A stretch of DNA of 50,633 nt, taken from sequence record NC_102605.1; one strand, written 5' to 3'. Source of the stretch: a phage. This document shows positions 735 through 15,336 of this stretch, piece by piece. A program made the position numbers and the translations under genes. Every line of letters starts with the position of its first letter. Position 1 is the first letter of the stretch. A model generated the notes under the pieces. That model was not told where the DNA came from. It ran no database searches and saw nothing but the letters and a program-made list of their open reading frames with translations.

Positions 735-756
735 GAATAGCACTTTTTGTTAAAAC
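735..756 (+). promoter_or_regulatory. Dyad-motif cassette (aatagcactttttgttaaaa), upstream of gene 812
   Basis: Motif, then tatgat about 22 bp after TTGTTA, then leader tcatcgaaacgaa, RBS and ATG. Confidence 0.6.
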
Positions 757-811
757 CAATCAGTCACGAATTGCTATGATTACTTCATCGAAACGAACTG
801 AGGAATTCACG

Positions 812-2618: not shown

Positions 2619-2803
2619 TGAAACTGTTGCGCCGCTTTACTAATAAAGGCAAGTGCCGCCGACTCATTGAGAGAATAGAAAACGAAAAAGAGTATTTGCT
2701 ATATGCAATGCTTCATTGTAAAGATCAAAAACTGTCAAAAGATAGACAATGGTTTAAACGCTGGCAAAAAATGAGATATTGGCTTGATCAACTCACTAAA
2801 TAG
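2618..2803 (+). CDS. Hypothetical basic protein (61 aa)
   Basis: ORF track; stop TAG lies inside the next dyad motif. Confidence 0.5.
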   Translation: MKLLRRFTNKGKCRRLIERIENEKEYLLYAMLHCKDQKLSKDRQWFKRWQKMRYWLDQLTK

Positions 2804-2818
2804 CACTTTTTGTTAAAA
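2798..2818 (+). promoter_or_regulatory. Dyad-motif cassette
   Basis: aaatagcactttttgttaaaa, then cataat and leader cattcatcgaaacgaa. Confidence 0.6.
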
Positions 2819-2875
2819 GCGATCCGGTTTGTTTTGGCATAATGCATTCATCGAAACGAACCGGAGAATTTAAAA

Positions 2876-3157
2876 ATGATGGTATCAAAAACAACTACTA
2901 ATTTCGCTGGCAAACGTGGCATTGAGTTAAGCATTGAAACGGGTTACAACAAGTTTGAAGAATTTGAAACGCTGTGCATTTGGGAAGCGGATAATGATTG
3001 CGAATGGCTTTGTTCTTACCGCGTAAATGGTGATGGATCATTCACATGGAATGCAAACATTTATCTGAAAAAAGAAGTTATGGAAGAATTGCCAGCATTC
3101 ATTAAAGATGAAAAACATCTTCGCCAGGTTATCCAGTTTATCAGTGAGAACATTTAA
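2876..3157 (+). CDS. Hypothetical protein (93 aa)
   Basis: ORF track; CGGAGAA RBS. Confidence 0.55.
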   Translation: MMVSKTTTNFAGKRGIELSIETGYNKFEEFETLCIWEADNDCEWLCSYRVNGDGSFTWNANIYLKKEVMEELPAFIKDEKHLRQVIQFISENI

Positions 3158-3390
3158 TGAAACGTAAGCGGCATCAAGCAACGTGCCGCTGCCAGGCTTA
3201 CGATTTTCCTCATAGGTTTGGTGGCGGTTTGTGTACCGGAATTCAGATCGCTGAGGAAAACGTAGGCGGCAACCTTTGCCAGAACTGCTATCTGTTTAAT
3301 GGTGGCTGTGAAGTGTTAAAAGGCCAGGAGTCTCCGCGAGAATGCGCATATGTGCAAGAATTTATAGAATATCATGAGGTTAAATTATGA
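3157..3390 (+). CDS. Cys-rich small protein (77 aa), possible zinc-binding
   Basis: ORF track; 8 Cys in C-x2-C-like spacing. Confidence 0.5.
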   Translation: MKRKRHQATCRCQAYDFPHRFGGGLCTGIQIAEENVGGNLCQNCYLFNGGCEVLKGQESPRECAYVQEFIEYHEVKL

Positions 3391-3584
3391 TCCGTTATGC
3401 GTGTTATTTGGTTAGCAGAATTGACGCGAATGATAAAACACTTATTGCAACTGCTAATAATTTAGCAAATGCGTTGCAAGCGTTTGAAGATTACAACAGC
3501 GATCATATTAATAAAAAATATGGCAAAACAATTGAGCGCCAGCGTTGCGAGTGGGTAACAGAAGATAGGATCACGTATCTATGA
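3387..3584 (+). CDS. Hypothetical protein (65 aa)
   Basis: ORF track; ATGA overlap. Confidence 0.5.
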   Translation: MIRYACYLVSRIDANDKTLIATANNLANALQAFEDYNSDHINKKYGKTIERQRCEWVTEDRITYL

Positions 3585-3748
3585 CATATTTCAAAAACAT
3601 AAAAACCGGAAGAATTTACCGCGTAAACCTGCGTCATAAAAACGCTTTAATTATGAGCAAAGGCGGCTGTTGGGTTAGGTCTGCGCGTTATAGAAATGCA
3701 GATTTAACAGGCTATCCGTTTATCGCCGTAAACAGCACGAATTGCTAA
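3581..3748 (+). CDS. Hypothetical small basic protein (~55 aa), not in ORF track
   Basis: ATGA overlap with the upstream gene; open frame ending inside the next motif. Confidence 0.35.
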   Translation: MTYFKNIKTGRIYRVNLRHKNALIMSKGGCWVRSARYRNADLTGYPFIAVNSTNC

Positions 3749-3750
3749 AA
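3732..3750 (+). promoter_or_regulatory. Dyad-motif cassette (palindromic variant agcacgaattgctaaaa)
   Basis: TAGCA-N5-TGCTA-type dyad, followed by tatcat. Confidence 0.5.
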
Positions 3751-3807
3751 ACGATATCGCTCTGATTGGTATCATACTTTCACACAAACAAAATGGAGAA
3801 TCAAAAA

Positions 3808-4029
3808 ATGAAACTGAAAACTGAATCCATCATGAACATTGTCAAAGCTCACGGGAAAGTAGTTTTGAAAATGGATCGCGCTTCTGGATTCCATCAGTTA
3901 ACGATTACCCGCGTAAAAACTGGTTACGCTGTTGGCGAACATCCAGGCGGTAGAATCCGCCGAATAACTGAAAGTGATGCTTACGCGATGATTGACGAAA
4001 TGAGCATGTTTATTGAGAAGTGGGGTTGA
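3808..4029 (+). CDS. Hypothetical protein (73 aa)
   Basis: ORF track 3766..4029; ATG after GGAGAA RBS. Confidence 0.5.
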   Translation: MKLKTESIMNIVKAHGKVVLKMDRASGFHQLTITRVKTGYAVGEHPGGRIRRITESDAYAMIDEMSMFIEKWG

Positions 4030-4030
4030 T

Positions 4031-4255
4031 ATGGTTCAAGATGCTTTCTTTGCTCGCCTACATGAAGCGGAGGCGGCTGGACTTAACAAAGAATGGGCGC
4101 TTAAAGTTGCCTATCTTGAAATAACGCTTGATGACGCATTAGGCGCTATGGATATGGATCAAGAAAGTAGCGTGATGCTTGCTGATCCTAACGCAATAAT
4201 CAATGATTGCGGTTGTAACTTCGATCCATCTTGCAAGCGTTGTTTCCCATTCTAA
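4031..4255 (+). CDS. Hypothetical protein with Cys-rich C-terminus (74 aa)
   Basis: ORF track 4013..4255; internal ATG after GTGGGG. Confidence 0.45.
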   Translation: MVQDAFFARLHEAEAAGLNKEWALKVAYLEITLDDALGAMDMDQESSVMLADPNAIINDCGCNFDPSCKRCFPF

Positions 4256-4267
4256 GGAGTATTTAAA

Positions 4268-4345
4268 ATGACACCTATCGAAAAAATTTGCTGCCCAAAA
4301 CACGGCGGAAGCGGGGATAAAACAACATGCCCATTCTGTAAGTAA
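4268..4345 (+). CDS. Cys-rich micropeptide (25 aa, CC-x7-C-x2-C), not in ORF track
   Basis: Perfect TAAGGAG RBS 8 nt upstream of ATG. Confidence 0.3.
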   Translation: MTPIEKICCPKHGGSGDKTTCPFCK

Positions 4346-4454
4346 AAAAATAGCGGCCTGTTTAGCGTCGTGTCGCGATTTCAGGCCGTAGCCAATACAG
4401 TTGCGACACCTACAAACAAAACGCCTTACAAGGTCATACAGAAAGGATTTAAAC

Positions 4455-5150
4455 ATGCTTATTTTCTCACTATTTGATGGTTCTGGTTATGCTGCGTTGC
4501 CGTGGGCTGAACGTGGTCACAAAGTGCTGTGCTTTAATTTCGACGGTGCTGATCATGGTGATTACCAATCAGTGCGCGTGACTCATCCCAACATCGTTTA
4601 TTTGAATGAGTGGATCGGATTATCATTCCAGCATAACGCAATGATGCGCGTCTTTGGCACTCCAGATTTTATTATTGCATTCCCTCCATGCACTGATTTA
4701 GCTGTTAGCGGATCGCGTCACTTTGCCGCAAAGCGTGAACGTGATCCAGACTTCCAGAAAAAGGCGGTTGAAACGGCAAAGATTGCTGCCAATATTGCGG
4801 ATCGGTTTAACGTTCCATACATGATTGAGAATCCTGTTAGTGTTCTGTCGTCAATGTGGCGGCAACCTGATTTTATCTTTCATCCTTGCGCGTTTGGAGG
4901 TCTGTTGCCGGAAGATGATAAACATCCTCACTTTCCTGAAATCATTCCCGCTCGCGATGCGTACACCAAAAAAACTTGTCTTTGGACGGGTAACGGCTTT
5001 GTAATGCCGGATACAAACGCAGTATTGCCAACAGGGAACAACAATCCAGGCTGGCAAAAGCTCGGCGGCAAGTCTAAGCGAACAAAGCTGATCCGCTCAC
5101 TCACTCCGCGCGGCTTTGCGCTTGCTGTATGCATGGCAAATCAGAAATAG
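4455..5150 (+). CDS. DNA cytosine-5 methyltransferase-like protein, short, no obvious target-recognition domain (231 aa)
   Basis: Motif I-like FDGSG, PC motif FPPCTDLAVSG and ENV-like IENPV in canonical order; ATG after AAAGGA. Confidence 0.4.
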   Translation: MLIFSLFDGSGYAALPWAERGHKVLCFNFDGADHGDYQSVRVTHPNIVYLNEWIGLSFQHNAMMRVFGTPDFIIAFPPCTDLAVSGSRHFAAKRERDPDFQKKAVETAKIAANIADRFNVPYMIENPVSVLSSMWRQPDFIFHPCAFGGLLPEDDKHPHFPEIIPARDAYTKKTCLWTGNGFVMPDTNAVLPTGNNNPGWQKLGGKSKRTKLIRSLTPRGFALAVCMANQK

Positions 5151-5165
5151 CACTTTTTGTTAAAA
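5145..5165 (+). promoter_or_regulatory. Dyad-motif cassette
   Basis: Motif contains the methyltransferase stop; hairpin gccggat/atccggc; cataat. Confidence 0.6.
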
Positions 5166-5222
5166 CGCCGGATCACGTATCCGGCATAATGATTTCAACG
5201 AAAACAAAAGGAGATAAATCAA

Positions 5223-5585: not shown

Positions 5586-5830
5586 GTTTACCGGAAAAAG
5601 ATTACATTCCTCACCGTTCTGAGGCCATGCAAAAATACCGTTACAAGGTTGTTTTCAGTGCGATATCCTCATTAAAGGAAGGTGAAACGGTCTATCGCAT
5701 CAGGGATAAGCATTCATATTTGCTGATTGGTCACACGTTCCATCGTTCGCTTGAATTCGATACTAAAACTCTTGAATGTCATAGCATTATAGACGGAAAG
5801 TTATTAGCCAGGGTTGAGCCGATCAAATAG
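5582..5830 (+). CDS. Hypothetical protein (82 aa)
   Basis: ORF track; ATGA overlap; stop TAG inside the next motif. Confidence 0.5.
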   Translation: MSLPEKDYIPHRSEAMQKYRYKVVFSAISSLKEGETVYRIRDKHSYLLIGHTFHRSLEFDTKTLECHSIIDGKLLARVEPIK

Positions 5831-5845
5831 CACGAATTGCTAAAA
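5825..5845 (+). promoter_or_regulatory. Dyad-motif cassette (palindromic variant)
   Basis: aaatagcacgaattgctaaaa; hairpin gttgccg/cggcaac with tataat in the loop. Confidence 0.6.
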
Positions 5846-5897
5846 GGCTGTAGAATGTTGCCGTTATAATTAGCGGCAACAAGAAGGAGATTTTTAG

Positions 5898-14727: not shown

Positions 14728-15336
14728 ATGAGCGAAATCAAAATTGCCGCCTCAACTGGCGAAATAGACAAACGCACAATCAATGGTAACAACGGCGTAA
14801 GACGTGGTAAAGATCGCAAACGTCGCGCACCTGTTAGCGGTTATCTTGTATTAAAGGAAGAAGTAAGAGCCGGATTAAAAGCGCGGCTTGATGAAGTTGT
14901 CAACGCTTACGGCGGTTGCGCTGCCCTGGCGCGTGAAATTGGAGTTAACCTTAAAACAGTATGGGGATGGAAAGAGCGCGGCATGATTTCAACTAAAGGC
15001 GCTGAACTGATCCAGAAAGATTACCGCCGCAAAGGTTTTAACGGTTTCCGCGCTTCATATTGCCGTCCAGATATCAAGTTTGATAATAACGGCAAGCCAT
15101 TAGAGAATCGTTGCAGCAACAGAAAGCTGATGCGATTTGTAACCAAAGAGGAAGCGGAAGCAAGAGGATTTGTGCGGCCTTACGATCCGTTACGGTCTAT
15201 GAGTCCAGAAGAACGCGAGAAAGAGAAAGCGCGGCGCAAGGCTGAACGCGACAAGGCGAAAGAAGAACAGCGCAAAGCAAAGGAGGCCAATCAGAAGAAA
15301 CGCGTTGTGATTTCCGTCGATAGCACTGATTGCTAA
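14728..15336 (+). CDS. Cro/YdaS-like HTH DNA-binding protein with Lys/Arg/Glu-rich C-terminal tail (202 aa)
   Basis: HTH signature GGCAALAREIGVNLKTVWGWKERGMIS; AGGTGA RBS. Confidence 0.55.
   Translation: MSEIKIAASTGEIDKRTINGNNGVRRGKDRKRRAPVSGYLVLKEEVRAGLKARLDEVVNAYGGCAALAREIGVNLKTVWGWKERGMISTKGAELIQKDYRRKGFNGFRASYCRPDIKFDNNGKPLENRCSNRKLMRFVTKEEAEARGFVRPYDPLRSMSPEEREKEKARRKAERDKAKEEQRKAKEANQKKRVVISVDSTDC

What the first reader, a model, noticed from the sequence alone, without database searches (positions are those of the whole stretch)
3157..4345. Cluster of Cys-rich early microproteins, including a 25-aa CC...C..C peptide with a perfect SD
Three adjacent ORFs are Cys-rich: 3157..3390 (8 Cys), 4031..4255 (Cys-rich C-terminus) and an unannotated 25-codon ORF at 4268..4345 (MTPIEKICCPKHGGSGDKTTCPFCK) preceded by TAAGGAG at ideal spacing. 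Small zinc-ribbon proteins in phage early regions are often host-takeover or anti-defence factors. These sit directly upstream of the methyltransferase-like gene.
Basis: seen in the sequence. Interest (0 to 1): 0.45.

Follow-up and report, generated by a model that had tools for sequence, protein, structure and literature searches.

The report
Conserved 25-residue phage zinc-knuckle microprotein gene
A 25-codon reading frame that most genome annotations skip is a real, strongly conserved gene for a tiny probable zinc-binding peptide that has spread as a bare 90-base cassette among three unrelated families of virulent phages of enteric bacteria; its target is unknown.

Summary
The window is a T1-like siphophage (Drexlerviridae, Tlsvirus-like). 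All three ORFs exist at the stated coordinates, with two corrections. ORF 3157-3390 has 7 Cys plus a conserved His, not 8 Cys. The ORFs are not adjacent, not homologous to each other, and lie in two transcription units.

The 25-codon ORF 4268-4345 is a genuine gene. It is exactly 25 codons in all 41 copies examined across T1-like phages, RB43-like T4-type phages and Skate-like phages. Synonymous sites are near saturation (pS about 0.76) while pN is about 0.10, and no other frame stays open. C9, H12, C21 and C24 are invariant, which fits a Cys3His zinc knuckle. Close relatives in two families lack exactly the ORF, so it behaves as a roughly 90-nt presence/absence cassette. It sits in five different gene contexts. 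I found no copy in 185,579 bacterial species genomes, 5,426 E. coli genomes or 72,556 plasmids. A viable engineered Skate-like phage lacks its last five codons.

It matches no Pfam, PHROG, NCBIfam or PDB family, and I found no paper describing it.

Best reading: an early, accessory, trans-acting zinc microprotein that binds a conserved host factor. Translation, metal binding and the target are untested.

The parts
3157..3390 (+). 77-aa Cys-rich protein (7 Cys + His19). It belongs to a large uncharacterised phage family (phrog_5016) with the signature TCxCxAYxFPHRxGGGxC ... CxxC ... CxV..G.E...EC. It lies in the upstream transcription unit (promoter-like repeat at 2799) and is unrelated to the other two Cys-rich ORFs.
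   Evidence: It matches phrog_5016 at E 7e-42. All 7 Cys and His19 are invariant or at least 90% conserved in 38 homologues of 35-56% identity. There are 215 clusters at 50% identity with E <= 1e-3, and every source calls them 'hypothetical'. It has no Pfam, NCBIfam or PDB match. The AF2 model has pLDDT 40 and is uninformative.
3731..3802 (+). Copy of the repeated roughly 70-nt promoter/operator-like element that heads the transcription unit 3808-5150. It comprises AACAGCACGAATTGCTAAAA, then a -10-like TATCAT, then a GGAG.
   Evidence: The direct-repeat family has copies at 736, 1246, 1895, 2799, 3731, 5146 and 5826. Promoter function is inferred from its position before each ORF block. The strict sigma-70 consensus scan did not call it.
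3808..4029 (+). 73-aa protein (phrog_4344, no Cys). It is the first gene of the unit that contains the 74-aa ORF, the mini-ORF and the methyltransferase.
   Evidence: Its synteny with the 74-aa ORF is conserved across Tempevirinae.
4031..4255 (+). 74-aa protein (phrog_9323). It has a conserved helical N-terminal part (residues 1-46) and a variable C-terminal tail carrying a CxC-x5-CxxC knuckle.
   Evidence: 68 homologues were found, all on roughly 50-kb T1-like phage contigs. C60, C62, C68 and C71 are at least 90% conserved in 67 sequences, and divergent members keep a four-Cys tail of different spacing. The AF2 model has pLDDT 62, with three short helices and an unstructured tail.
4253..4259 (+). 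TAAGGAG. This is the stop codon of the 74-aa ORF fused to the Shine-Dalgarno sequence of the mini-ORF, 8 nt before its ATG.
   Evidence: The sequence is read directly. The same TAAGGAG arrangement is seen where the mini-ORF follows the methyltransferase stop codon in BubbaBully and RCIP0096.
4268..4345 (+). 25-codon gene for the microprotein MTPIEKICCPKHGGSGDKTTCPFCK. The predicted Cys3His zinc site uses C9, H12, C21 and C24, arranged as two knuckles (C-P-x-H-G-G and C-P-x-C) separated by 8 residues.
   Evidence: All 41 copies read out are 25 codons from the conserved ATG: 31 in the codon analysis (24 unique DNA sequences), 8 on metagenome contigs and 2 further IMG/VR copies. In the RB43-like phages an in-frame upstream ATG would add 5 residues. 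Variable sites by codon position are 8/11/24, with mean pS 0.76 and pN 0.10. All other five frames are interrupted in some or all sequences. tblastn finds it in 138 phage records. Invariant columns are M1 T2 P3 E5 K6 C9 H12 G13 G14 S15 G16 C21 P22 C24. Clean presence/absence is seen in close relatives.
4346..4454 (+). 109-nt leader of the methyltransferase gene. It is backbone sequence, not part of the mini-ORF cassette.
   Evidence: It is present, with about 90% identity, in DanielBernoulli and FSL SP-126, which lack the mini-ORF. The 11-bp hairpin seen in the window (z = -2.2) is not kept in relatives, and the covariation term is unfavourable.
4455..5150 (+). 231-aa Dcm-like C5-cytosine methyltransferase-like gene (phrog_757). 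It is the last gene of the unit, and the next promoter-like repeat starts at 5146.
   Evidence: It matches phrog_757 at E 1.5e-86. Relatives annotate it as Dcm-like. The motifs FDGSG, FPPC and ENP are visible in the translation. It has no Pfam or NCBIfam hit.

Best explanation
ORF 4268-4345 is a genuine protein-coding mini-gene.

Expression (inferred). It is transcribed with the 73-aa ORF, the 74-aa ORF and the Dcm-like methyltransferase from the promoter-like repeat at about 3731. It is translated from its own Shine-Dalgarno sequence, which overlaps the stop codon of the upstream gene, so translation is probably coupled to termination of that gene.

Product (inferred). The 25-residue soluble peptide has net charge of about +2. 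Two knuckles, C9-P-x-H12-G-G and C21-P-x-C24, most likely clamp one Zn(II) ion into a minimal zinc-ribbon-like fold.

Evolution (shown). The gene behaves as an autonomous accessory cassette made only of a ribosome-binding site plus the ORF, about 90 nt. It has been gained or lost at intergenic junctions in three unrelated families of virulent enterobacterial phages. It was not found in any bacterial genome, E. coli genome or plasmid record searched.

Function (inferred). It has no constant neighbour, and its sequence is almost frozen while synonymous sites are saturated. It therefore most likely acts in trans by binding a conserved macromolecule of the enterobacterial host early in infection. 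That could be host takeover or counter-defence; the data do not separate the two.

Status of each step. Shown: the ORF, its conservation, purifying selection, mobility, phage restriction, and dispensability in one engineered phage. Inferred: translation, zinc binding, action in trans, and a host target.

The 77-aa and 74-aa Cys-rich ORFs are separate, conserved, probably metal-binding small proteins of unknown function. They are not partners of the mini-gene.
For: Coding:
- 41 of 41 copies are exactly 25 codons. 24 of 25 third positions vary, against 8 and 11 of 25 first and second positions. Mean pS is 0.76 and pN is 0.10, and inter-family pairs have pS of 0.8-0.9.
- Only this frame is open in every copy.
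- A stop codon lies four codons upstream in frame, which fixes the start in the window.

Ribosome-binding site or coupling in each context:
- TAAGGAG-N8-ATG in the window and its close relatives.
- TAAGGAG-N6-ATG in the phages where the ORF follows the methyltransferase.
- GGAG-N9 with an overlapping TGATG in Skate.
- TAAAATG coupling to the NadR-like gene in RB43-like phages, through a 5-codon MKILT extension.

Ligands:
- C9, H12, C21 and C24 are invariant. C8 is lost in RB43, GuL6 and EcRAM-01.

Mobility:
- Clean indels in T1-like phages: DanielBernoulli and SP-126 read ...TTCTAA|AATTAGCGG where the window reads ...TTCTAA|GGAG..ORF..TAA|AAAAATAGCGG.
- Clean indels in T4-type phages: Miller compared with CfP1.
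- Five distinct gene contexts.
- DNA similarity between families is confined to the ORF (hits H137 and H144).

Phage-only distribution:
- 0 hits in two scans of 185,579 species genomes.
- 0 hits in plasmids and in 5,426 E. coli genomes.
- The 8 metagenome contigs with a copy carry it in the same T1-like or Skate-like contexts.

Accessory status:
- seszw mutant 40S fuses codons 1-20 to the next ORF, removing C21 and C24. It is a viable isolate from the CiPGr genome-reduction study (PMC9825161).
Against: - No direct evidence of translation exists. No ribosome profiling or proteomics for these phages was found.
- Zinc binding is inferred from a motif only. Of 14 purified archaeal C(P)XCG microproteins, 5 contained no zinc (PMC11241148).
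- The peptide is too short for every structure and large-database homology tool offered, so I obtained no model and made no search for larger proteins that carry the motif.
- RB43-like copies lack a recognisable Shine-Dalgarno sequence before the conserved ATG.
- Near-invariance could reflect folding constraints on a 25-residue metal site rather than a conserved target.
- Neither the target nor the phenotype is known.
- Within Tempevirinae the ORF is always next to the methyltransferase, which leaves some room for a methyltransferase-linked role.
Confidence: 0.6

Rival explanations
1. The mini-protein is a Com-like or Lar-like helper of DNA modification. In this reading it is a small zinc-finger protein that activates translation or activity of the adjacent Dcm-like methyltransferase, or alleviates restriction together with it.
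For: - In every Tempevirinae phage examined, the ORF abuts the methyltransferase, either just before it (window, Tls, Stevie, LL5, Vc1, Motto, HCF1) or just after it (BubbaBully, RCIP0096, L010, L017, L035).
- The methyltransferase leader contains a CCUU that could pair with the AAGG of the methyltransferase Shine-Dalgarno sequence.
- From my own knowledge: Mu Com is a small zinc-finger protein encoded just upstream of mom, and it activates mom translation.
- The BASEL study found that methyltransferase content does not explain restriction sensitivity in Drexlerviridae and invoked unknown factors (PMC8594841).
Against: - The same peptide occurs with no methyltransferase nearby in Tunavirinae (Sfin-1, BrunoManser), RB43-like phages (after an NMNAT/Nudix gene) and Skate-like phages (after a ParB-like gene).
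- The 109-nt leader is present unchanged in phages that lack the ORF. It is absent where the ORF follows the methyltransferase.
- The leader shows no conserved structure.
- None of the 15 peptide variants matches the Lar or Com Pfam models at E <= 10.
Confidence: 0.12
2. The ORF is a cis-acting upstream or leader ORF. What matters is the act of translating it, through coupling, mRNA unfolding or attenuation for the downstream gene, and not the peptide itself.
For: - It is very short.
- Its start is tightly coupled to the stop codon of the upstream gene in at least three contexts.
- It lies in front of the methyltransferase leader in the window.
Against: - Selection acts on the amino-acid sequence: pN/pS is about 0.13 with saturated synonymous sites, and 14 of 25 residues are invariant.
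- The downstream element differs in every context. In RB43-like phages it is an intrinsic terminator, and in arrangement B it is a promoter repeat.
Confidence: 0.05
3. The peptide is real but does not use zinc. It could be a redox-active or disulfide-bonded Cys peptide, or one that binds another metal (Fe, Co, Ni), for example acting as a thiol or metal buffer or as a rubredoxin-like unit.
For: - Knuckle motifs of the C-P-x-C-G type also occur in rubredoxins (my own knowledge).
- 3 of 14 purified archaeal C(P)XCG microproteins carried a metal other than zinc, and 2 more were zinc-free (PMC11241148).
Against: - An invariant His among the four ligands and a single site per peptide fit structural Zn(Cys3His) sites, for example the retroviral CCHC knuckle and the SecA C-terminal domain (my own knowledge).
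- The E. coli cytoplasm is reducing, which disfavours disulfides.
- No partner redox gene travels with the ORF.
Confidence: 0.1
4. The ORF is spurious. Its conservation reflects a DNA or RNA element, or chance.
For: - Most annotators did not call it.
- It has no family match.
Against: - Variation is concentrated at third codon positions (8/11/24).
- The length is fixed at 25 codons in 41 copies across three phage families whose flanks are unrelated.
- No other frame stays open.
- An RNA or DNA element would not tolerate synonymous saturation.
Confidence: 0.03

Closest known systems
C(P)XCG zinc-finger microproteins of Haloferax volcanii (for example HVO_2753; PMC11241148, PMC6562870)
   Same: These are stand-alone, single-domain proteins built from two Cys knuckles of the C-P-x-C-G type. 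They are often missed by annotation, and their functions are mostly unknown.
   Different: They are archaeal, chromosomal and roughly 40-70 aa, with four Cys per site. The phage peptide is 25 aa, has His as the second ligand (C-P-x-H-G-G) and ends one residue after the last ligand. There is no detectable sequence homology.
SecA C-terminal zinc-binding domain / SEC-C motif (Pfam PF02810). The resemblance is recalled from memory.
   Same: It is a metal site of about 22 residues with three Cys and one His or Cys. An 8-residue inter-knuckle loop contains G-S-G and Lys (SecA ...CPCGSGKKYKQCH... against CPKHGGSGDKTTCPFC). It works as a protein-binding module.
   Different: The ligand spacing differs: CxC-x8-C[HC] against CxxH-x8-CxxC. 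None of the 15 peptide variants matched PF02810 at E <= 10, and no SecA chain appeared in the PDB profile search. SecA's domain is part of a large protein, not a free peptide.
DnaJ-type CxxCxGxG zinc-finger repeat (Pfam PF00684). The resemblance is recalled from memory.
   Same: The first knuckle, C9-P-K-H12-G-G-S-G, fits C-x-x-[C->H]-x-G-x-G exactly.
   Different: The peptide has one site rather than two interleaved sites, and the second knuckle lacks the GxG. There is no HMM match.
Phage T4 Stp, a 26-residue peptide that inhibits EcoprrI restriction and triggers the PrrC anticodon nuclease (my own knowledge)
   Same: It sets the precedent that a virulent coliphage encodes an early peptide of about 25 residues that acts on a host defence protein.
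   Different: Stp has no Cys and no metal site, and it is not homologous. The function of the present peptide is untested.
Phage Mu Com (62 aa, C4 zinc finger, translational activator of mom) and the Rac prophage restriction-alleviation protein Lar (Pfam PF14354) (my own knowledge)
   Same: These are small zinc-finger phage proteins linked to DNA modification or anti-restriction. Com lies directly upstream of the modification gene, as the mini-ORF does in the window.
   Different: They are two to three times longer and have four Cys, and there is no homology. The mini-ORF is found without any methyltransferase in three other phage groups.

Membership tests
Genuine protein-coding gene (25-aa ORF) | The reading frame is kept open, at fixed length, in divergent relatives | tested here: met
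   41 of 41 copies are 25 codons from the conserved ATG. All other frames are interrupted in some or all sequences.
Genuine protein-coding gene (25-aa ORF) | Purifying selection on the amino-acid sequence (excess of synonymous change) | tested here: met
   Variable sites by codon position are 8/11/24. Mean pS is 0.76 and pN is 0.10 over 276 pairs.
Genuine protein-coding gene (25-aa ORF) | A translation initiation signal | tested here: met
   There is a GGAG or GAGG 6-9 nt upstream of the ATG in T1-like and Skate-like copies. RB43-like copies lack one but have an in-frame ATG coupled to the upstream stop codon.
Genuine protein-coding gene (25-aa ORF) | The peptide or ribosome footprints are detected | not testable with these tools
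   No ribosome-profiling or proteomic data were found.
Structural zinc knuckle / mini zinc ribbon | Four invariant Cys/His ligands arranged as two C-x-x-[C/H] knuckles | tested here: met
   C9, H12, C21 and C24 are invariant in 15 peptide variants. C8 is dispensable.
Structural zinc knuckle / mini zinc ribbon | Stoichiometric Zn(II) binding and metal-dependent folding | not testable with these tools
   The peptide is below the 30-aa limit of the structure tool. The motif alone is not proof (PMC11241148).
C(P)XCG zinc-finger microproteins | Protein shorter than 70 aa with at least two exact C(P)XCG motifs | tested here: not met
   The size criterion is met. The motifs are CPKHG (His in place of the second Cys) and CPFCK (no Gly), so neither is an exact C(P)XCG motif.
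SEC-C motif (PF02810) and DnaJ CxxCxGxG (PF00684) | A match to the family HMM | tested here: not met
   hmmscan of 15 variants at E <= 10 returned only a chance-level Zn_ribbon_HMPTM hit, E 3.6, for 3 variants. The PDB profile search returned only a TRIM34 fragment at E 4.6.
Mu Com-like or Lar-like helper of a DNA-modification gene | Obligate linkage to a modification gene and its leader | tested here: not met
   Linkage is seen only in Tempevirinae. It is absent in Tunavirinae, Pseudotevenvirus and Skatevirus. The leader is present in phages without the ORF.
Accessory 'moron'-type cassette of virulent phages | Presence/absence polymorphism among close relatives, several insertion contexts, and dispensability | tested here: met
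   Clean empty sites occur in DanielBernoulli, SP-126, PHB17 and Miller. There are five contexts. The viable seszw 40S truncation shows dispensability (PMC9825161).
PHROG 5016 (77-aa ORF) and PHROG 9323 (74-aa ORF) | A full-length HMM match | tested here: met
   E values are 6.7e-42 and 1.1e-45 over the whole proteins. Both families are annotated 'unknown function'.

The most novel reading that the evidence does not exclude
The 25-residue peptide would be one of the smallest autonomous zinc-finger proteins known. On its own it would neutralise or redirect a conserved enterobacterial factor, either a defence system or a core machine such as a chaperone, the secretion apparatus or the transcription apparatus. 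It would travel between unrelated virulent phage families as a bare 90-bp gene. That would make it a minimal, transferable host-manipulation module and one of the 'unknown factors' behind differences in phage sensitivity.
Probability: 0.3. Interest if true: 0.75.

Novelty: new member of a known kind. Interest (0 to 1): 0.52.

Why it matters
Genes this short fall below the length cut-offs of gene callers and of most homology and structure tools. This one is unannotated in most of the 138 phage records that carry it.

The evolutionary evidence here is unusually clean for a microprotein. The length is fixed, synonymous sites are saturated, there is cross-family transfer, and empty sites are precise. 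That makes the peptide a well-justified target for experiments: it can be chemically synthesised, and deleting or adding it takes about 90 nt.

If it binds a host factor, it would be a minimal natural zinc-knuckle ligand. It could also help explain differences among T1-like phages in restriction and defence sensitivity that known methyltransferases do not explain (PMC8594841).

The analysis also corrects annotations. Starts were wrongly extended in Lw1, BubbaBully and BrunoManser. In seszw, the neighbouring gene's start was placed inside the ORF.

Tried and rejected
The limits stated for the structure tool and the representative search are 30 aa. I used tblastn and degenerate DNA patterns instead.
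- Pfam, PHROG, NCBIfam and PDB searches with the peptide or its 15-variant profile gave nothing above chance.
- A relaxed core-motif scan of IMG/VR (C-x2-H-G-G-S-G-x4-C-P-x-C) added only out-of-frame, GC-rich chance matches plus known relatives. No larger protein carrying the motif turned up.
- AlphaFold2 models of the 77-aa protein (pLDDT 40) and the 74-aa protein (pLDDT 62) were too poor for a fold search, so none was run.
- I tested whether the three Cys-rich proteins are related, using hhalign. They are not.
- I tested for a conserved RNA structure in the methyltransferase leader, as a possible Com-like target. The window's 11-bp hairpin is not conserved and covariation is unfavourable.
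- I considered stop-codon readthrough fusing the 74-aa ORF to the mini-ORF, because they share a frame in the window. I rejected it because LL5 has a different spacing and the other contexts have other upstream genes.
- The 105-aa antisense ORF at 4139-4456 is rejected. Its frame is interrupted in 9 of 15 variants.
- Literature searches for the peptide sequence, and for small zinc proteins of Drexlerviridae, found nothing specific.
Full report
**What the window is.** The region 2800-5200 is 99.8% identical to Salmonella phage KKP 3830 and 93-99% identical to Tls, Stevie, Sazh, YSP2 and other T1-like siphophages (Drexlerviridae, Tempevirinae). The first 6 kb consist of small + strand ORFs grouped behind a repeated element of about 70 nt. 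This element reads AATAGCAC[TTTTT/GAATT]G[T/C]TAAAA, then a variable and often hairpin-forming stretch, then a -10-like hexamer, then GGAG. Copies lie at 736, 1246, 1895, 2799, 3731, 5146 and 5826. I take these as early promoter/operator units, which is an inference; the strict sigma-70 scan did not call them. On that reading the 77-aa ORF belongs to the unit that starts at 2799. The 73-aa ORF, the 74-aa ORF, the 25-aa ORF and the methyltransferase-like gene form the unit that starts at 3731.

**Checking the observation.** All three ORFs are at the stated coordinates.
- ORF 3157-3390 has 7 Cys, not 8, plus His19.
- ORF 4031-4255 has four Cys in its last 15 residues.
- ORF 4268-4345 encodes MTPIEKICCPKHGGSGDKTTCPFCK. 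TAAGGAG ends 8 nt before its ATG, and the TAA of that motif is the stop codon of the 74-aa ORF.
- Large ORFs of the window contain 1.26% Cys. Against that background the enrichments have binomial p values of 5.6e-5, 0.014 and 2.6e-4.
- The ORFs are not adjacent. Three ORFs and a promoter-like repeat lie between the first and the other two.
- Profile-profile comparison shows that the three proteins are unrelated.

**The 25-codon ORF is a real gene.** tblastn finds the peptide in 138 phage records, 137 of them over at least 80% of its length, and in most of them nothing is annotated under the match. About half of those records are engineered clones of one phage, seszw. The independent lineages are three:
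- Drexlerviridae of several subfamilies: Tls, Stevie, LL5, HCF1, Vc1, Motto, BubbaBully, RCIP0096, Sfin-1 and BrunoManser.
- Straboviridae of the genus Pseudotevenvirus: Lw1, CfP1, Xman, RB43, GuL6 and EcRAM-01.
- Skatevirus: Skate and seszw.

I read out 41 copies, and every one is 25 codons from the conserved ATG. In the codon analysis of 31 copies (24 unique DNA sequences), 24 of 25 third codon positions vary, against 8 first and 11 second positions. Mean pairwise pS is 0.76 and mean pN is 0.10. Between phage families pS is 0.8-0.9, close to saturation, while the peptides stay 72-88% identical to the window's peptide. Every other frame is broken by stop codons in some or all copies. This pattern is expected for a translated protein under strong purifying selection. 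It is not compatible with a conserved RNA or DNA element, or with chance.

**Anatomy of the peptide.** The consensus is MTPIEK[IV]CCPxHGGSGxKx[ST]CP[FY]C[KR].
- Invariant residues are M1, T2, P3, E5, K6, C9, H12, G13, G14, S15, G16, C21, P22 and C24.
- RB43, GuL6 and EcRAM-01 replace C8 with Ala or Ile. The ligand set is therefore C9, H12, C21 and C24.
- That set forms two knuckles, C-P-x-H-G-G and C-P-x-C, separated by eight residues. This is the geometry of a minimal zinc ribbon or rubredoxin-type knuckle pair.
- Position 11, inside the first knuckle, is hypervariable (K, R, Q, N, H, I, L), as expected for an exposed residue.
- The peptide is hydrophilic, with net charge of about +2, and has no signal or membrane segment. 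This is read directly from the sequence.
- Zinc binding is an inference. Among archaeal C(P)XCG microproteins, 5 of 14 purified proteins held no zinc (PMC11241148).

**A cassette of about 90 nt that comes and goes.** In the window and its close relatives the gene order is p73, p74, mini, a 109-nt leader, then the methyltransferase. In BubbaBully, RCIP0096 and three metagenomic phages the order is p73, p74, methyltransferase, mini, then the next promoter repeat. In that second arrangement the mini-ORF's TAG stop is the TAG of the repeat's AATAGCAC.

The close relatives DanielBernoulli, FSL SP-126 and PHB17 have no mini-ORF. Their junction reads ...TTCCCATTCTAA|AATTAGCGGCCTG. The window reads ...TTCCCATTCTAA|GGAGTATTTAAA-ATG...TAA|AAAAATAGCGGCCTG. 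The same holds in T4-type phages. Miller and many Klebsiella, Cronobacter and Enterobacter relatives read ...GGGACTCTGA|TAAAAAGATT...terminator. CfP1, Lw1 and RB43 carry 93 extra nucleotides there: ATGAAAATTTTAACA plus the ORF. DNA similarity between the phage families is limited to the ORF itself (hits H137 and H144).

The neighbours differ in each group:
- The Dcm-like methyltransferase, on either side, in Tempevirinae.
- Two unknown PHROG families in Tunavirinae.
- An NMN-adenylyltransferase/Nudix gene and an intrinsic terminator in Pseudotevenvirus.
- A ParB-like gene and a small unknown ORF in Skatevirus.

In three contexts the start is coupled to the upstream stop codon (TAAGGAG..ATG, TGATG, TAAAATG). 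In the T4-type phages an in-frame upstream ATG would add MKILT and give a 30-aa form, and EcRAM-01 is annotated that way.

**Distribution.**
- Two degenerate-pattern scans of one genome from each of 185,579 bacterial and archaeal species found nothing.
- tblastn against 72,556 plasmids and blastn against 5,426 complete E. coli genomes also found nothing.
- The eight metagenome contigs with a copy carry it in the same T1-like or Skate-like contexts, and five of them are about 50 kb.
- Every copy I found is in these three phage groups, none of which is known to be temperate (my own knowledge).

**Dispensability.** The many 'mutant seszw' records come from the CRISPR-based genome-reduction study of Yuan et al. 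(PMC9825161). In clone 40S, and in the many later clones that give the same truncated match, a deletion aimed at the neighbouring annotated gene fuses codons 1-20 of the mini-ORF to the last eight codons of the next ORF. This removes C21 and C24. These phages are viable on the laboratory host, so the gene is accessory under those conditions. Together with the natural empty sites, this places it among conditionally useful 'moron'-type genes.

**Mechanism.** Three observations guide the inference. No gene travels with the ORF. The peptide is nearly frozen over a divergence that has saturated silent sites. Almost all carriers are recorded on Enterobacteriaceae hosts; three T1-like records name other hosts (Vibrio, Pseudomonas, Streptococcus).

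The most economical reading is a trans-acting, zinc-stabilised peptide made early in infection that binds a conserved host macromolecule. The data do not tell whether this serves host takeover or counter-defence.
- Its neighbours (an orphan methyltransferase, an NAD-salvage enzyme, a ParB-like protein) are the kind of accessory genes often found in counter-defence regions. This rests on my own knowledge and is weak guilt by association.
- The extreme sequence constancy argues instead for a conserved core target, or for folding constraints on a 25-residue metal site.

My estimates are about 0.95 that the gene is real, about 0.75 that it binds zinc, and about 0.5 that it acts on a host factor. 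The combined confidence is 0.6.

**Rival readings.**
- A Com-like or Lar-like helper of the methyltransferase is attractive for the window alone. It is disfavoured because the ORF occurs without a methyltransferase in three groups, the methyltransferase leader exists without the ORF, and the leader has no conserved structure.
- A purely cis-acting leader ORF is contradicted by selection at the amino-acid level and by the varied downstream elements.
- A non-zinc metal or redox role cannot be excluded.
- A spurious ORF is effectively excluded.

**The other two Cys-rich proteins.**
- The 77-aa protein belongs to a large, uncharacterised phage family: phrog_5016, with 215 clusters at 50% identity and E <= 1e-3. 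Its seven Cys and His19 are invariant or nearly so in homologues of 35-56% identity. Eight ligands suggest two metal sites, or possibly an Fe-S cluster. Some members carry two tandem copies (P0082) or an N-terminal extension with a weak, sub-threshold Lar-like zinc-ribbon match (P0153). There is no Pfam, NCBIfam or PDB relative, and the AF2 model is unusable.
- The 74-aa protein (phrog_9323) is confined to T1-like phages. It has a conserved helical N-terminal part and a variable tail that almost always keeps four Cys.
- Both are conserved, probably metal-binding, and of unknown function.

**Comparison with what is known.** The closest kinds are the archaeal C(P)XCG zinc-finger microproteins, the SecA C-terminal SEC-C zinc site, and the DnaJ CxxCxGxG repeat. 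The last two are resemblances recalled from memory. The first knuckle fits C-x-x-[C->H]-x-G-x-G, and the 8-residue G-S-G/Lys loop recalls SecA. None of these is supported as a family assignment, because no HMM or PDB match exists and the exact motif definitions are not met. T4 Stp (26 aa) is the functional precedent for a coliphage peptide of this size that acts on a host defence protein, but it is unrelated in sequence and binds no metal. Full-text searches for the sequence found no paper.

**Verdict.** It is a new family within a known kind, small zinc-knuckle accessory proteins of phages. It is notable for its size, its constancy and its spread as a bare ORF across three phage families. The idea of a functional 'cluster' of Cys-rich proteins, and the link to the methyltransferase, are not supported. 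Function remains to be tested. Interest is moderate (0.52).

Noticed in passing
window 736-807, 1246-1317, 1895-1970, 2799-2870, 3731-3802, 5146-5220, 5826-5895 (weaker copy at 15319): This is a repeated element of about 70 nt: AATAGCAC[TTTTT/GAATT]G[T/C]TAAAA, then a variable GC-rich hairpin in several copies (for example CCGGATCACGTATCCGG at 5167), then a -10-like hexamer, then CATCGAAACGAA..GGAG. Each copy precedes a block of small ORFs. TAGCAcgaatTGCTA is palindromic in some copies, which suggests an operator. The Stevie record marks these as 'repeat_region'.
   Followed up: partly
L042 / L043 (Salmonella phage seszw mutants, MZ375302 and MZ375296), locus positions 601-860: In seszw, the annotated start of the gene after the mini-ORF (a GTG giving VPILQIGWKMNAEQ...) lies inside the mini-ORF. 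As a result, the CiPGr deletion of that 'gene 17' also removed the last five codons of the unannotated mini-ORF in most genome-reduced clones.
   Followed up: yes
L002 2444-2578 (Lw1 gp133), L028 1462-1578 (BubbaBully CDS0060), L030 1459-1578 (BrunoManser bas12_0065): The few records that do annotate the mini-ORF give it N-terminal extensions of 13-19 codons that overlap the upstream gene. These extensions are not conserved between lineages. The conserved start is the ATG of MTPIEK, or MKILT-MTPIEK in the T4-type phages.
   Followed up: yes
window 4455-5150: The 231-aa 'Dcm-like' methyltransferase matches only a PHROG family (phrog_757). It has no Pfam or NCBIfam hit even at E <= 1, although FDGSG, FPPC and ENP motifs are visible. 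It is unusually short for a C5-cytosine methyltransferase.
   Followed up: no
window 4420-4452 (methyltransferase leader): A conserved CCUU at about 4425 could pair either with a nearby AAGG (a local hairpin) or with the AAGG of the methyltransferase Shine-Dalgarno sequence at about 4443. This suggests possible translational control of the methyltransferase. The leader is conserved whether or not the mini-ORF is present.
   Followed up: partly
window 3157-3390 and homologues P0082, P0153: The seven-Cys domain (phrog_5016) occurs as a tandem duplication in P0082 (235 aa). In P0153 it is fused behind a weak, sub-threshold Lar-like zinc-ribbon match (PF14354, E 1e-4, 23 bits against a cut-off of 28.6).
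   Followed up: partly
window 3808-4029: Several GenBank relatives (GJL01, YSP2, Henu4_2, FSL SP-126) label this 73-aa ORF 'polyribonucleotide nucleotidyltransferase'. That name is implausible for a protein of this size with no Pfam hit, so it looks like a propagated annotation error.
   Followed up: no
phage records OR786094 (Streptococcus phage MBBL140), ON843697 (Pseudomonas phage Motto), MT360682 (Vibrio phage Vc1): These are T1-like genomes that are close to enterobacterial Tempevirinae in this region (MBBL140 is 93% identical over 4200-4470). They are deposited with non-enterobacterial hosts, so the host labels may need checking.
   Followed up: no
window 4139-4456, minus strand: A 105-aa antisense ORF overlaps the 74-aa ORF's tail, the mini-ORF and the leader. 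Its frame across the mini-ORF is interrupted by stop codons in 9 of 15 variants, so it is not a gene.
   Followed up: yes
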